Translations under genes and position numbers: made by a program
Notes under the pieces: model-generated
Databases searched by the model: none
What the model was told of the DNA's origin: nothing
Seen by the model: only the letters and a program-made list of their open reading frames with translations
NCBI GenBank assembly: GCA_964001285.1
Contig: CAXFAF010000006.1
Coordinates: 8,205 to 72,204, forward strand
Direction of reading: 5' to 3'
Origin: an uncultured bacterium
Lineage (GTDB): Bacteria > Pseudomonadota > Alphaproteobacteria > MED-G09
DNA length: 64,000 bases
In this document: piece after piece, positions 4,135 to 62,928 of the stretch
How the letters are laid out: each line of letters starts with the position of its first letter
Numbering within the stretch: position 1 is the stretch's first letter

Positions 4135-5292
4135 ATGAATATTCATGAATATCAAGCTAAAGAGCTATTAAAAAATTTTGGTGTTCCCGTCGCTAAAGGA
4201 GAGGTTCTTTATTCAAAAGAAAATGTCATTGAGGCAGCAAAGAAAGTTTCAGATAGTTTATGGGTGGTTAAAGCACAAATTCATGCAGGAGGAAGAGGTA
4301 AGGGCGGTGGAGTCAAGATAACAAAGTCTCTTGAAGAGGTTGAAGTTTTAGTTAATGAAATAATGGGGATGCAACTTATCACTCATCAAACTGGTCCTGA
4401 AGGAAAAAAAGTCAGAAGGGTATATATTGAGGAAGGTTCAAATATTGCTGAAGAGCTGTATCTATCTATTTTAGTAGATAGAAAAACATCCCAAGTTAGT
4501 TTTATTGTTTCAACAGAAGGAGGAGTAAATATTGAAGAAGTAGCCGAAGAAACTCCCGATAAGATTACTACTGTTGCAATAGATCCTGATGATGGCGTTA
4601 CTGAAGAGGATATAAATACTCTTTGCACCTCTCTTTGTTTATCAGATAATTTGAAAGAGCAAGGCTCTAATCTTTTCAGAAATTTGTATGAAGCATTTAC
4701 CAAAAGCGATATGAGCCTTTTAGAAATAAATCCATTAGTTTTAACAAAAGAAAACCAACTATTATGTTTAGATGCAAAAGTAAATTTTGATGATAATGCT
4801 TTATTTAGACATACTGAATTTCAAAACCTTATAGATCCTTCTGAAGAAGACGAATCTGAATTGAAGGCTACAGAATTTGGTTTAAGTTATATTAAATTAG
4901 ATGGAAATATTGGATGTCTAGTCAATGGAGCTGGTCTAGCTATGGCCACTATGGATATCATAAAATTGTATGGAGCTGAGCCCGCCAATTTTTTAGATGT
5001 AGGTGGTTCTGCAACTAAAGAACTTGTTACAGAGGCTTTTAAAATAATTTTATCCGATGAAAATGTTGAGGGCATTCTTGTAAATATTTTTGGAGGTATA
5101 ATGAGGTGCGATGTTGTTGCTGAAGGAATAATAGGAGCAGCAAAAGAAGTAAACATATCTGTTCCCTTAGTTGTTAGACTTGAAGGAACTAATGTAGACT
5201 TAGGAAAGAAAATTATAGAAGATTCTGATATTTCTATAATAAGCGCGTCTGACCTTGATGATGCAGCTAAGAAAATAACAGAGGCAATATAG
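4135..5292 (+). CDS. sucC: Succinyl-CoA ligase (ADP-forming) beta subunit
   Basis: [12 protein letters not shown] start, ATP-grasp domain and a C-terminal CoA-ligase domain ([18 protein letters not shown]). Confidence 0.95.
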
Positions 5293-54105: not shown

Positions 54106-55824
54106 TTGGAGCATCCACAAGAAAATAATTTAGAAGGTGAAGAATCTTCACAAACCATTGATGATGAAAATCAAGATAGTTTTTTAGAAAGAAGTGACAA
54201 TAAGAGCGCTCTGAAAAATTATAGAGTATTAGCAAGAAAATATCGGCCTCAAAGCTTCTCTGATTTATTGGGTCAAGAAACCATGGTGCAAATATTAAGG
54301 AATGCATTTACCTCTGGTAGATTAGCGCATGCTTATATGCTTACTGGTGTTCGTGGAATTGGGAAAACCACTACTGCAAGACTCCTTGCTCGTGCTTTAA
54401 ATTACAGTTCTGAAGATATTGATGAACCAACTCTAGATATTTCTACTTATGGACACCATTGTGAAGATATAATGGAGTCACGGCATATTGATGTTTTAGA
54501 AATGGATGCAGCATCTAGAACCGGTATTGCTGATATTAGAGAAATAATTGACTCAGTTAGTTATTCTACCTCATCGGCCAGGTTTAAGATTTATATTATT
54601 GATGAGGTTCATATGCTTTCAAAGTCTGCCTTTAATGGATTATTGAAGACTCTTGAAGAGCCTCCACCGCATGTAAAATTTATTTTTGCGACCACAGAGG
54701 TCCATAAGGTACCTCTTACTATATTATCTCGATGTCAAAAATTTGATCTAAGACAGCTAGATGAAGTAAACATGCTAAAATTATTAAAAAGTGTTTGTCA
54801 AAAAGAAAAAGCTGATATTTCTGATAATATTTTATCAGTTATAGGAAGGGCGGCTGCAGGTTCTGCAAGGGATGGTCTGTCAATATTAGATCAAGCTATT
54901 ACACTTGCTCAAAGCGAAAAGAATTTGGATGAAAATTCTATAAGGGATATGCTAGGGCTTTCAGATCATGCTCGAATAATTGAATTATTTAAATCAATTT
55001 CAATGGGCAACATCGAAAGTGCCTTAAAAGAAATTAAAGATCAGATAGAACTCGGAGCTGAACCTATAAACATTATCTCTAGTTTAGGGGATATTGTTCA
55101 TGAATTAACTTTACTAAAGGTATCAAAGGCGAAAAATGATAACCTATTTCTTGGACCTGAGAATTTTTCAAAGTTAACAGAATTATTAGAAGATCTGGAT
55201 GTAAGAAAATTATCAAGATTTTGGCAAATGATCTTAAAAGCAGATACAGAAATTAAAAATTCATTTAATGCTTTTTCAGCTCTTGAGATGGTTGTAATTA
55301 GAATGGCTTATGTTTCAGAATTGCCAACACCTGCTGAGATTATTGATTCAATAGAAGAAACAGAGGAAAATAAAAAAAAAAAATTAAAAAGTAAAATTAC
55401 ATCTAATCCAAAGAATATTGATAAAAATACAAAGAATAATAGCTTTGATAATATTGGGTCCTTTGAGGATATTATAGAGTTAGCGGGGAAGCATAAATTC
55501 TTGATTTTAAAAAAATTCTTACAGGAAGATGTTCGGCTAGTAAGTTTTGAAAATGGCCATATAGATATTAATGTTCCTGAAGGCAGTGAAGAAATTATAA
55601 AAGAATTAATAGTTAAACTCTATGATTGGACAGATCAAAGGTGGATAATTAATGTTTCTTCAAAAAAAGGCGAAGACACAATTTTAGAGAAACAAAATAA
55701 TATTCAAAATAATATTGTTGATGAAGTTAGTAATAAGGAAGAAATAAAAAAAGTTATGGAAGCTTTTCCAGATTCTAAAATTACATCAATTAGTAAGGTC
55801 GATAATAGAAATGAGTCAAAGTGA
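54106..55824 (+). CDS. dnaX: DNA polymerase III subunits gamma/tau
   Basis: YRPQSFSDLLGQE, Walker A GVRGIGKTTTARLLA, a clamp-loader zinc region, then C-terminal tau domains. Start assigned to the TTG at 54106 with AAGAGG upstream; the start is uncertain. Confidence 0.9.
   Translation: MEHPQENNLEGEESSQTIDDENQDSFLERSDNKSALKNYRVLARKYRPQSFSDLLGQETMVQILRNAFTSGRLAHAYMLTGVRGIGKTTTARLLARALNYSSEDIDEPTLDISTYGHHCEDIMESRHIDVLEMDAASRTGIADIREIIDSVSYSTSSARFKIYIIDEVHMLSKSAFNGLLKTLEEPPPHVKFIFATTEVHKVPLTILSRCQKFDLRQLDEVNMLKLLKSVCQKEKADISDNILSVIGRAAAGSARDGLSILDQAITLAQSEKNLDENSIRDMLGLSDHARIIELFKSISMGNIESALKEIKDQIELGAEPINIISSLGDIVHELTLLKVSKAKNDNLFLGPENFSKLTELLEDLDVRKLSRFWQMILKADTEIKNSFNAFSALEMVVIRMAYVSELPTPAEIIDSIEETEENKKKKLKSKITSNPKNIDKNTKNNSFDNIGSFEDIIELAGKHKFLILKKFLQEDVRLVSFENGHIDINVPEGSEEIIKELIVKLYDWTDQRWIINVSSKKGEDTILEKQNNIQNNIVDEVSNKEEIKKVMEAFPDSKITSISKVDNRNESK
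55367..55394 (+). other. Homopolymeric A12 slippery tract inside dnaX with stops in both alternative frames (candidate gamma-producing slippage site)
   Basis: aaaa-t-AAAAAAAAAAAA-ttaaaaagtaa. The 0 frame reads NKKKKLKSK. The -1 frame gives IKK then TAA at 55392, and the +1 frame gives N then TAA at 55385. It sits about aa 422 of 572, after clamp-loader domain III. Confidence 0.5.
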
Positions 55825-56404
55825 AATAGATAATTTAATTGAATTATTGGCTAGGATGCCAGGTATTGGGCCTCGTTCTGCAAGAAGACTAGCTTTGAGT
55901 ATGTTAAAAAAGCCAGACTCTTTAATGCGACCTTTAGCTAAATCTCTCATTGATACGGCCAATTCAATTATTCAATGCTCAATATGCGGCAACCTTGATA
56001 CAGTGACTCCTTGTAATATTTGTGAAGATAAAAAAAGAGATACTTCTATTATAGTGGTTATCGAAGAAGTTGCGGATTTATGGGCTTTGGAAAGAGCATC
56101 TGTTCATAAAGGCCTTTATCATGTATTGGGAGGCACTTTATCAGCAATTGATGGGATAAGTCCTGAAAATATAGGTATTGCTAGTTTGGTAGAAAGAGCG
56201 AAAAAGTCAGATACTAAGGAGGTAATTCTTGCAATGAATGCCACTATAGATGGACAAACAACTGCGTATTATATTACCGACCAATTATCCGATATAGAAA
56301 TAAAGGTATCACGCCTTGCTAGAGGTGTTCCTGTTGGGGGCGAACTCGATTATATGGATGATGGCACTCTTTTGGAGGCTATAGAATCTAGACAACCATT
56401 CTAG
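55811..56404 (+). CDS. recR: Recombination protein RecR
   Basis: Helix-hairpin-helix N-terminus, C4 zinc finger CSICGNLDTVTPCNIC and a Toprim domain. Overlaps the dnaX 3' end by 14 nt. Confidence 0.93.
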   Translation: MSQSEIDNLIELLARMPGIGPRSARRLALSMLKKPDSLMRPLAKSLIDTANSIIQCSICGNLDTVTPCNICEDKKRDTSIIVVIEEVADLWALERASVHKGLYHVLGGTLSAIDGISPENIGIASLVERAKKSDTKEVILAMNATIDGQTTAYYITDQLSDIEIKVSRLARGVPVGGELDYMDDGTLLEAIESRQPF

Positions 56405-62283: not shown

Positions 62284-62928
62284 TTAATTTAATAAATTTG
62301 CAATTTCTTCTCTGATCTCATCAACTCCAGATTTATTCTTCGATGATGTGATCAATATTTTAGGAAAGATTGCTTTTCTTTTTTCTACTTCTTTTAATAC
62401 TAATTTTGCATGATTTTCAACTTCTAAGATTTTATCAGCTTTTGTTAAAACTATTTGGTATGAGACAGCAAAATTATCTAATACATCCATTACTTCGTTA
62501 TCAATAGGCATAATTTTACGCCTGGAATCTATTAATAAAAAAACTCTTCTTAAATTATTTCTGCTTTTAAGGTAAAGATCAGAAAGATTTGTCCATTTAT
62601 CTATTTCTTTTTTTGAAGCTTTTGCGTATCCGTAGCCAGGCATGTCAACAATATTAATAAGTGATTTAGAATTATTAGATATTGAAAAAAAATTTAACTC
62701 TCTGGTTCTACCTGGATTCTTTGATGTATAAGCTAATTTATTTTTATTGGTAATAGAATTGAGTAAACTTGATTTACCCACATTTGATCTACCAAAAAAG
62801 GCAACTTCTGGTAATGATTCCTCCGGAAGGTTTTCTAATTGAGTTACCCCGAGGGTAAAAATAATATTTTGATTAAATAGCCATTTACCAGGAGATTTAA
62901 TATTTCCAGTTTTTTTTTCCATAACCAT
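62284..62928 (-). CDS. engB: Ribosome biogenesis GTP-binding protein EngB/YsxC (YihA)
   Basis: G1 motif GRSNVGKSSLLN and a DMPGYG switch. Conserved yidC-engB-argB neighbourhood. Confidence 0.92.
   Translation of the reverse strand: MVMEKKTGNIKSPGKWLFNQNIIFTLGVTQLENLPEESLPEVAFFGRSNVGKSSLLNSITNKNKLAYTSKNPGRTRELNFFSISNNSKSLINIVDMPGYGYAKASKKEIDKWTNLSDLYLKSRNNLRRVFLLIDSRRKIMPIDNEVMDVLDNFAVSYQIVLTKADKILEVENHAKLVLKEVEKRKAIFPKILITSSKNKSGVDEIREEIANLLN

What the first reader, a model, noticed from the sequence alone, without database searches (positions are those of the whole stretch)
55367..55394. A12 homopolymer inside dnaX with immediate stop codons in both alternative frames: likely programmed slippage producing the gamma subunit
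At codon ~422 of 572 (after clamp-loader domain III, exactly where gamma ends in E. coli and Thermus) dnaX contains AAAAAAAAAAAA preceded by aaaat. The -1 frame terminates after three codons (I-K-K-TAA at 55392). The +1 frame terminates after one codon (N-TAA at 55385). That arrangement is the hallmark of ribosomal -1 frameshifting (E. coli A AAA AAG) or transcriptional slippage on A-runs (Thermus thermophilus). It would yield a truncated gamma alongside full-length tau. A 12-A run in an essential gene is otherwise a liability, which argues for function.
Basis: partly seen in the sequence, partly recalled or inferred. Interest (0 to 1): 0.6.

Follow-up and report, generated by a model that had tools for sequence, protein, structure and literature searches.

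The report
Conserved poly-A slippage tract in dnaX
A run of twelve A's in the DNA-replication gene dnaX of a marine alphaproteobacterium is conserved in its relatives and looks built to make RNA polymerase or the ribosome slip, giving a short (gamma) and a long (tau) clamp-loader protein from one gene; this trick is known in other bacteria but is not described for this group in the papers I could search.

Summary
dnaX (54106..55824, 572 aa) contains A12 at 55372..55383 (codons 423-426, KKKK). One extra A gives ...KKKKIKK* (429 aa); one fewer gives ...KKKN* (426 aa).

The tract is the longest homopolymer in the 64-kb window. It lies 13 residues after clamp-loader domain III, in a predicted disordered linker before the tau-only C-terminal domain.

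- All sampled relatives (73-99% identity, 5 sublineages, including 9 contigs found with a tract-blind anchor) carry A10-A14 at the same codon. Both alternative frames close within 0-3 codons, although the flanks differ.
- A>=9 runs are otherwise depleted in this genome's ORFs.
- Five much more distant alphaproteobacterial-type dnaX genes (37-54% GC) carry A10-A11 at the equivalent site with both frames closed.

No E. coli-type stimulators (SD-like sequence, hairpin) are present. This fits the Thermus thermophilus transcriptional-slippage type, possibly helped by ribosome sliding on A11 or longer.

Some assembled contigs carry +1 or -1 tract alleles in which gamma is the templated product.

It is a new member of a known kind, in a class where only ClpXP proteolysis was known. 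There is no RNA or protein evidence.

The parts
54106..55824 (+). dnaX ORF (tau, 572 aa, TTG start)
   Evidence: ORF list. Pfam PF13177, PF22608, PF12169 and PF12362. Aligns to the E. coli clamp-loader core 2-367 at E=1e-71.
55372..55383 (+). A12 slippery tract, codons 423-426 (KKKK), in phase
   Evidence: It is the longest homopolymer in the window. T followed by A11 is the only invariant block in the linker alignment of five lineages.
55385..55387 (+). TAA stop reached when one A is missing (+1 frame); product ...KKKN*, 426 aa
   Evidence: An equivalent stop occurs 0-1 codons after the tract in all relatives.
55392..55394 (+). TAA stop reached when one A is added (-1 frame); product ...KKKKIKK*, 429 aa
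   Evidence: An equivalent stop gives a 429-aa product in all clade members.
55363..55443 (+). Disordered linker (aa 420-446) between the clamp-loader core and the C-terminal domain; the tract lies at its start
   Evidence: AlphaFold2 model: pLDDT below 50 for residues 420-446, with folded domains on both sides. The sequence is highly variable among relatives.
55456..55791 (+). Tau-only C-terminal domain (PF12362, aa 451-562), which the slipped products lack
   Evidence: Pfam hit at E=3e-26. Folded in the model. Remains an intact ORF in another frame in the tract-shifted sibling contigs.
55811..56404 (+). recR, overlapping the dnaX stop by 14 nt (context only, not part of the mechanism)
   Evidence: ORF list. 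RecR Pfam domains in syntenic loci.

Best explanation
The A12 tract is a selected, programmed slippage site. It lets one dnaX gene produce full-length tau (572 aa) and a gamma-like protein of 426-429 aa. The short form keeps clamp-loader domains I-III and lacks the C-terminal tau domain.

Most likely route, by analogy with Thermus thermophilus dnaX: RNA polymerase realigns the nascent RNA on the A/T homopolymer and produces mRNAs with extra or missing A's. Normal translation of every mRNA whose tract length is not 12 +/- 3n then stops within 1-3 codons, because both alternative frames carry a nearby TAA. At A11-A13, ribosome sliding or -1 shifting on the iterated AAA codons may add to the same outcome.

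Shown here: the tract, its position in a disordered linker just after domain III, the stops in both frames, conservation of all three across lineages, depletion of such runs elsewhere, and the absence of E. coli-type stimulators.

Inferred: that slippage actually happens in this organism, its efficiency, which machine slips, and that the short product works as gamma.
For: (1) Anatomy. A12 at codons 423-426. Adding an A gives 429 aa and removing one gives 426 aa. The site is 13 residues past the end of the crystallographic gamma core and 9 codons past the Pfam domain III end. It lies inside a segment with pLDDT below 50 (residues 420-446) between two folded parts.

(2) Conservation within the clade. 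Relatives at 92, 77, 74 and 73% identity have A13, A13, A13/A12 and A11 starting at the same codon and phase. The -1A product is 426/427 aa and the +1A product is 429 aa in all of them, while the flanks diverge. A tract-blind anchor scan found 9 metagenome contigs; all 9 have A10-A13 at the identical offset.

(3) Selection against such runs elsewhere. A>=9 in the window's ORFs: 2 observed against 7.0 expected (P=0.002), with A7 enriched. This is the sharp transition at 9 described by Baranov 2005. None of the 7 other KKK runs is all-AAA.

(4) Recurrence far outside the clade. All 5 distant representatives with KKK in the linker that were checked encode it as an uninterrupted A10-A11, on contigs of 37-54% GC. 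In 4 of the 5 it is the only A>=7 run in the gene (L026 also has an A7). Both frames are closed in every case. Per-gene probability of both frames being closed that soon is 0.016-0.094, with a product of 1.4e-8 over six lineages. The joint all-AAA probability is about 1e-6 if the sequences are independent.

(5) Mechanism type. There is no downstream structure (z from -0.3 to +1.3), no conserved upstream SD-like element and no Rfam hit. Stops in both non-zero frames are the published hallmark of the Thermus slippage case (PMC5009743 and PMC1088944).

(6) Assembled contigs with tract +1 or -1 exist in at least five sublineages (L007-L010, L012, L023 and L024; proteins P0273, P0311, P0322, P0326, P0343, P0352, P0364), and their downstream tau domain is intact. 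If these alleles are real, tau in those cells can only be made by slippage.
Against: No transcript or protein data were available, so neither mRNA heterogeneity nor a 47-kDa product has been seen.

Within this AT-rich genome the single-sequence statistics are weak: P(all-AAA) = 0.2-0.4 and P(both frames closed) about 0.1.

The five clade sublineages are related, so their agreement is not five independent trials.

Baranov 2005 notes that some AT-rich bacteria may suppress slippage on long A runs. This genome does show depletion at 9 and above.

The nearest outgroup (56% identity) lacks the tract at this codon and has only an A9 a few codons downstream, alongside several A8 runs. Most alphaproteobacterial DnaX proteins have no K-run here: 88 of 94 and 109 of 110. 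The trait is therefore sporadic.

The +1/-1 alleles could be homopolymer sequencing or assembly errors.

Transcription cannot be separated from translation as the slipping step by sequence analysis.
Confidence: 0.7

Rival explanations
1. Same outcome (gamma plus tau), but the slip is mainly translational. Ribosomes shift -1 on A_AAA_AAA, or slide on the A11-A13 stretch, and terminate at the nearby out-of-frame stops. The mRNA is homogeneous.
For: An in-phase A_AAA_AAA heptamer is present. Koutmou 2015 found robust ribosome sliding with premature out-of-frame termination at A11 and longer, but little at A9 or A10, in E. coli systems; the in-frame tracts in this clade are A11-A13. Sliding can leave the tract in either frame, which would also explain stops in both frames.
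Against: There is no upstream SD-like stimulator and no downstream hairpin, both of which drive the 50% efficiency in E. coli dnaX. A_AAA_AAA is reported to be much less shift-prone than A_AAA_AAG in E. coli (PMC5009743). Three of the distant relatives carry only A10, below the reported sliding threshold. A/T runs of 9 or more are established RNA polymerase slippage substrates.
Confidence: 0.2
2. No programmed function. The tract is a lysine-rich, low-complexity piece of a tolerant linker in an AT-biased genome, and any slipped products are harmless noise.
For: 33% GC, 80% AAA usage, and a 41% chance that KKKK is all-AAA. Out-of-frame stops are common in AT-rich DNA. The linker is otherwise unconstrained.
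Against: The tract is the only invariant block in a fast-evolving linker. A>=9 runs are depleted elsewhere in the ORFs. The same architecture recurs in dnaX genes from contigs of 42-54% GC, where A10-A11 is not expected by composition and is usually the only long A-run in the gene.
Confidence: 0.06
3. The tract is primarily a DNA-level contingency (phase-variable) locus. Replication slippage toggles cells between tau-templated and gamma-templated alleles, or the variation seen is simply assembly error at a homopolymer.
For: Contigs with A10, A12, A13 or A14 where siblings have A11, A13, A12 or A13, in both directions and in at least five sublineages. One is on a 37-kb contig with nominal 18x coverage.
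Against: Full-length tau is described as the essential DnaX form (abstract of bioRxiv 10.1101/2022.11.10.516041). It carries the C-terminal domain that the short product lacks. A true OFF state should therefore be lethal unless RNA- or protein-level slippage restores tau, which leads back to the main explanation. Most contigs are in frame (8 of 9 in the unbiased sample). Illumina and assembly errors at A11-A14 are a known artefact, and they could not be excluded here.
Confidence: 0.04

Closest known systems
Thermus thermophilus dnaX programmed transcriptional slippage (Larsen et al. 2000 PNAS 97:1683; summarised in PMC1088944 and PMC5009743)
   Same: A homopolymeric A run inside a single tau ORF. 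Stop codons lie close by in both non-zero frames. The short product is gamma and lacks the tau C-terminus. No ribosomal stimulators are required.
   Different: The tract is A11-A13 (A12 here) rather than A9. The site is at 74% of the ORF, only 13 residues after domain III. The host is a 33% GC marine alphaproteobacterium rather than a GC-rich thermophile. The C-terminal domain is the PF12362 type. Nothing has been shown experimentally here.
Two-ORF dnaX genes with A10 (Antonov et al. 2013, PMC3711429; Chlorobi, Bacteroidetes, Verrucomicrobia)
   Same: A poly-A tract of about 10 at the gamma/tau junction. The shifted sibling contigs (L007-L010, L012, L023, L024) have exactly this arrangement: gamma is templated and tau needs a slip.
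   Different: In the window and in most relatives tau is the templated product. The taxa differ: no Alphaproteobacteria appear in that paper's list.
E. coli dnaX -1 programmed ribosomal frameshifting (A_AAA_AAG with an SD-like element and a stem-loop)
   Same: The same gene and the same biological output, tau plus a truncated gamma ending a few codons after a lysine-codon slippery site.
   Different: No AAG-ending heptamer, no conserved SD-like element, no downstream hairpin and no Rfam match. Both frames are closed, not only the -1 frame.
Caulobacter crescentus DnaX processing by ClpXP (Vass and Chien 2013; bioRxiv 10.1101/2022.11.10.516041)
   Same: An alphaproteobacterial DnaX with the same domain plan. 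Gamma forms lack the C-terminus.
   Different: There gamma is made after translation by partial proteolysis. Here the gene carries a nucleic-acid-level slippery tract, which suggests a different route within the same class.
Poly(A)-tract frameshifts corrected by transcriptional slippage in Blochmannia and Buchnera, including Blochmannia dnaX (PMC3017870)
   Same: AT-rich genomes, with tract-length indels in dnaX tolerated because slippage restores the frame.
   Different: Those are interpreted as erosion in degenerating endosymbiont genomes, and they lie in the tau-only region downstream of the E. coli-type site. Here the tract is conserved, sits at the gamma/tau junction and occurs in free-living marine bacteria.

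Membership tests
Thermus-type dnaX transcriptional slippage | Uninterrupted A run of at least 9 on the sense strand inside dnaX | tested here: met
   A12 at 55372..55383. Relatives carry A10-A14.
Thermus-type dnaX transcriptional slippage | Tract lies after clamp-loader domains I-III and before the tau-specific C-terminal part | tested here: met
   Pfam domain III ends at aa 414 and PF12362 starts at 451. The E. coli core aligns up to query residue 410. Disordered linker at 420-446.
Thermus-type dnaX transcriptional slippage | Stop codons close by in both non-zero frames | tested here: met
   TAA at 55385 and at 55392. Conserved across lineages, with a product of per-gene probabilities of 1.4e-8.
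Thermus-type dnaX transcriptional slippage | Tau encoded by one uninterrupted ORF | tested here: met
   572-aa ORF. True for 8 of 9 contigs sampled without bias.
Thermus-type dnaX transcriptional slippage | mRNA population heterogeneous in the number of A's | not testable with these tools
   No transcriptome reads are available.
Thermus-type dnaX transcriptional slippage | Two protein products (tau and gamma) in comparable amounts | not testable with these tools
   No proteomic or expression data.
E. coli-type dnaX -1 ribosomal frameshift | In-frame X_XXY_YYZ heptamer (A_AAA_AAG in E. coli) | tested here: inconclusive
   A_AAA_AAA is present in phase, but the AAG-ending form is not. Any long A run satisfies the generic pattern.
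E. coli-type dnaX -1 ribosomal frameshift | SD-like stimulator about 10 nt upstream | tested here: not met
   The window has AGAGGA ending 5 nt upstream, but the relatives have agaaga, gatcaa or gataaa there, so it is not conserved.
E. coli-type dnaX -1 ribosomal frameshift | Stable stem-loop a few nt downstream | tested here: not met
   MFE -3.2 to -6.1 kcal/mol over 80 nt, z from -0.3 to +1.3 in five lineages. No Rfam family reaches its gathering score.
Two-ORF dnaX (Antonov 2013) | Zero-frame stop directly after the poly-A, with the tau C-terminus in another frame | tested here: not met
   Not met in the window. Met in sibling contigs L007-L010, L012, L023 and L024.
Caulobacter-type ClpXP processing of DnaX | C-terminal ClpX recognition motif plus a partial-degradation stop signal; gamma made after translation | not tested
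   No sequence model of these signals was available. Proteolysis cannot be excluded as an additional route.

The most novel reading that the evidence does not exclude
The tract works as a two-way rheostat. Slippage at the RNA or ribosome level is so efficient that DNA alleles differing by one A (tau-templated A12 versus gamma-templated A11 or A13) are all viable. They coexist in wild marine populations and set different tau:gamma ratios. The same poly-A solution has also arisen repeatedly and independently in Alphaproteobacteria, in place of or alongside the ClpXP route known from Caulobacter.
Probability: 0.2. Interest if true: 0.7.

Novelty: new member of a known kind. Interest (0 to 1): 0.5.

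Why it matters
Why bacteria keep two forms of DnaX is still an open question (bioRxiv 10.1101/2022.11.10.516041). The main argument that gamma matters is that unrelated lineages make it by different routes.

This finding adds abundant marine Alphaproteobacteria, plus several other alphaproteobacterial lineages spanning 37-54% GC, to the poly-A slippage route. It does so in a class where the only route described in the papers I could search is proteolysis. It therefore strengthens the case for convergent evolution.

It also offers natural +1/-1 tract alleles, which could be used to ask how the tau:gamma ratio is tuned.

In practice, dnaX genes that are 'split' at this tract in MAGs should not be annotated as pseudogenes.

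Tried and rejected
- Rfam gathering scan of the whole window: no hit of any kind, so no known dnaX frameshift element.
- Downstream hairpin: folded 80 nt after the tract in five lineages; none differs from shuffles.
- Upstream SD-like element: the window's AGAGGA is not conserved.
- Single-sequence statistics: all-AAA KKKK and nearby stops are individually unremarkable in this AT-rich genome. I rejected them as stand-alone evidence and relied on conservation and on the GC-richer relatives instead.
- Truncated database members P0278 (ends LSLIHI, which I read as the translation of the Nextera adapter sequence CTGTCTCTTATACACATC; from memory), P0277 and P0333: these look like contig-end or adapter artefacts, not tract alleles, and were not counted.
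- Nearest outgroup at 56% identity: no tract at the homologous codon, only an A9 about 9 codons downstream among several A8 runs. Treated as ambiguous.
- Taxonomy: could not be refined beyond the source labels 'Rhodobiaceae bacterium', 'Alphaproteobacteria bacterium' and 'Pseudomonadota bacterium' on MAGs.
- Sequencing error versus real alleles for the shifted contigs: could not be resolved without reads.
Full report
**1. The observation**

The window is 33.4% GC. The ORF 54106..55824 (+ strand, TTG start, 572 aa) is DnaX. Pfam finds the following:
- the delta-like AAA+ module PF13177 (aa 56-218);
- the lid PF22608;
- gamma/tau domain III, PF12169 (aa 275-414);
- the 'gamma and tau C-terminal' domain PF12362 (aa 451-562).

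At 55372..55383 there are twelve uninterrupted A's, preceded by aaaat. They are read in phase as AAA AAA AAA AAA, codons 423-426. With one extra A the product ends ...KKKKIKK* (429 aa, TAA at 55392). With one A fewer it ends ...KKKN* (426 aa, TAA at 55385).

**2. Position in the protein**

The solved E. coli clamp-loader core (DnaX residues 2-367, domains I-III) aligns to query residues 38-410 at E=1e-71.

An AlphaFold2 model built from a 20-sequence alignment has two confidently folded parts separated by a segment with pLDDT below 50, at residues 420-446.

The tract therefore lies at the start of a disordered linker, 13 residues after the structural end of domain III. A stop there removes exactly the C-terminal domain.

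**3. Is it more than chance in an AT-rich genome?**

Taken alone, not strongly:
- AAA is 80% of Lys codons, and a synonymous-codon shuffle makes the KKKK all-AAA 41% of the time.
- 10-15% of in-ORF A>=6 runs in the window have both alternative frames closed within 2-3 codons.

The genome nevertheless avoids such runs:
- A7 is enriched in ORFs (75 against 58.7 expected) and A8 is neutral.
- A>=9 is depleted 3.5-fold (2 against 7.0 expected, P=0.002). This is the sharp transition at nine that Baranov et al. 2005 read as selection against slippage-prone runs.
- None of the seven other KKK runs in the window is all-AAA.
- The only other >=9 run (T9 at 62910..62918 on the + strand, A9 in sense on the minus strand) sits at codons 4-6 of a small GTPase ORF.

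**4. Conservation in the clade**

Source labels place the organism in uncultured marine Alphaproteobacteria: 'Rhodobiaceae bacterium' for the window's own 90% cluster and 'Alphaproteobacteria bacterium' for others. Gene order (nudC-like, dnaX, recR, def, fmt, truA) is shared.

DNA from relatives shows the following:

| Locus | Protein identity | Tract |
|---|---|---|
| L001 | 92% | A13 |
| L002 | 77% | A13 |
| L003 | 74% | A13 |
| L004-L006 | 73% | A11 |

- The tract always starts at the same codon and phase.
- The -1A product is always 426/427 aa and the +1A product is always 429 aa.
- The length differences come from substitutions at the 3' edge of the run, and the downstream sequences that supply the stops differ.
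- In the alignment, T followed by A11 is the only invariant block of the linker.
- To avoid circularity I scanned metagenome contigs with a back-translation of the upstream peptide MAYVS[DE]LPTP[AE]EII only. All nine contigs found carry A10-A13 at the identical offset.

**5. Beyond the clade**

A search of 1.84 billion cluster representatives shows the clade is one 50% cluster. The nearest outgroup (56% identity, same synteny, 34% GC) lacks the tract at this codon. It has an A9 about 9 codons downstream with both frames closed, among several A8 runs; I treat that as ambiguous.

Among the more distant representatives, 6 of 94 have KKK in the first 70 residues after the LP[ST]P motif. I could fetch DNA for five, counting P0378, a 69% relative of one of them. 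All five encode the lysines as an uninterrupted run:

| Locus | Contig GC | Tract |
|---|---|---|
| L025 | 48% | A10 |
| L028 | 42% | A11 |
| L026 | 46% | A10 |
| L027 | 37% | A10 |
| L029 (labelled Rickettsiales) | 54% | A11 |

- In four of the five it is the only A>=7 run in the gene; L026 also has an A7.
- Both frames close within 1-6 codons.
- The fraction of positions in each gene at which both frames close that soon is 0.016-0.094. The product over six lineages is 1.4e-8.
- The joint probability that all tract lysines are AAA, given each gene's own usage, is about 1e-6 if the sequences are independent.
- Close relatives of L025, such as Dongia, Rhodospirillaceae and Pseudemcibacter, lack the run.

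The trait is therefore sporadic and probably arose several times.

**6. Mechanism**

Three published routes make gamma:
- E. coli -1 frameshifting at A_AAA_AAG, with an SD-like element and a hairpin;
- Thermus transcriptional slippage on A9, with stops in both non-zero frames;
- Caulobacter ClpXP proteolysis.

Here there is no downstream structure (z from -0.3 to +1.3 in five lineages), no conserved upstream SD-like element and no Rfam hit. The tract is far longer than a heptamer, and both frames are closed. That is the Thermus pattern.

RNA polymerase insertions concentrate in A/T homopolymers and rise exponentially with run length (Traverse and Ochman 2017). Ribosome sliding on iterated AAA becomes robust at A11 in E. 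coli systems (Koutmou 2015). It may therefore contribute for the A11-A13 tracts, and less so for the A10 relatives. Sequence alone cannot apportion the two.

**7. Tract-length alleles**

Database clusters contain gene calls of exactly 427 or 429 aa that end as predicted for +/-1 A: KKKK*, KKKN*, KKKKIN*, KKKKNN*, KKKKNKD*.

At the DNA level:
- L007-L010, from four samples, have A13 where siblings have A12.
- L023, a 37-kb contig with nominal 18x coverage, has A12 where siblings have A13.
- L024 has A14 where siblings have A13.
- L012 has A10 where siblings have A11.

In each of these, the C-terminal domain is intact in the other frame (called as a separate PF12362 ORF in L007-L010, L023 and L024; restoring one A gives the full reading in L012). 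This is the 'two-ORF dnaX' arrangement of Antonov et al. 2013, whose A10 examples are all Chlorobi, Bacteroidetes or Verrucomicrobia.

These may be real alleles, which would be viable only if slippage supplies tau. They may also be homopolymer assembly errors. I could not decide between the two.

**8. Verdict**

It remains unproven at the RNA and protein level.

It is a new member of a known kind, poly-A slippage in dnaX. It is notable for four things:
- it occurs in Alphaproteobacteria, where the searchable literature describes only proteolysis;
- its tract is long;
- it recurs across lineages of very different GC content;
- natural +/-1 alleles may exist.

Noticed in passing
window 62910-62918 (T9 on +, A9 in sense on -): This is the only other homopolymer of 9 or more in the window. 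It lies at codons 4-6 (M V M E K K T) of a 214-aa EngB/YihA-like GTPase ORF (62284..62928, - strand), so it may sit at or before the true start.
   Followed up: partly
window 1-64000: No Rfam family reaches its gathering score anywhere in the 64 kb. There is not even a tRNA.
   Followed up: no
window 55811-55824; L025, L026, L029: The dnaX stop overlaps the recR start by 14 nt, and there is no ybaB between dnaX and recR in this clade or in the 56% outgroup. The distant relatives keep the usual dnaX-ybaB-recR order.
   Followed up: no
L007-L010, L012, L023, L024 (sibling contigs): Assembled contigs carry the dnaX tract one A longer or shorter than in their siblings (A10, A12, A13, A14). dnaX is then called as two ORFs: a 427/429-aa gamma-like ORF plus a separate PF12362 ORF. 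Annotation pipelines would flag these as pseudogenes.
   Followed up: yes
L020-L022, nt 4295-4303 (outgroup dnaX codon 432-434): The 56%-identical outgroup has an A9 (GAA AAA AAA ACT) in the same linker. One extra A gives EKKNS* and one fewer gives EKKLLN*. The gene also holds several A8 runs, so the significance is unclear.
   Followed up: partly
proteins P0278, P0333, P0277 (cluster of P0064/P0026): These truncated DnaX calls end in foreign tails. P0278 ends ...DQLSLIHI, which I read as the translation of the Nextera adapter sequence CTGTCTCTTATACACATC (recalled from memory). The contigs appear to break just before the A tract, which hints that assemblers struggle at this site.
   Followed up: partly
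protein P0366 (447 aa, L002 lineage): This variant ends ...KKKKIIKNKKKKKKKNNLENNIYN, suggesting a second expanded A/K-rich stretch downstream of the main tract in that sublineage.
   Followed up: no
L025, L026, L027, L028, L029 (distant dnaX genes): A10-A11 tracts with both frames closed occur at the domain III / linker junction of five distant alphaproteobacterial-type dnaX genes, from contigs of 37-54% GC. This suggests repeated independent origins of the same device.
   Followed up: yes
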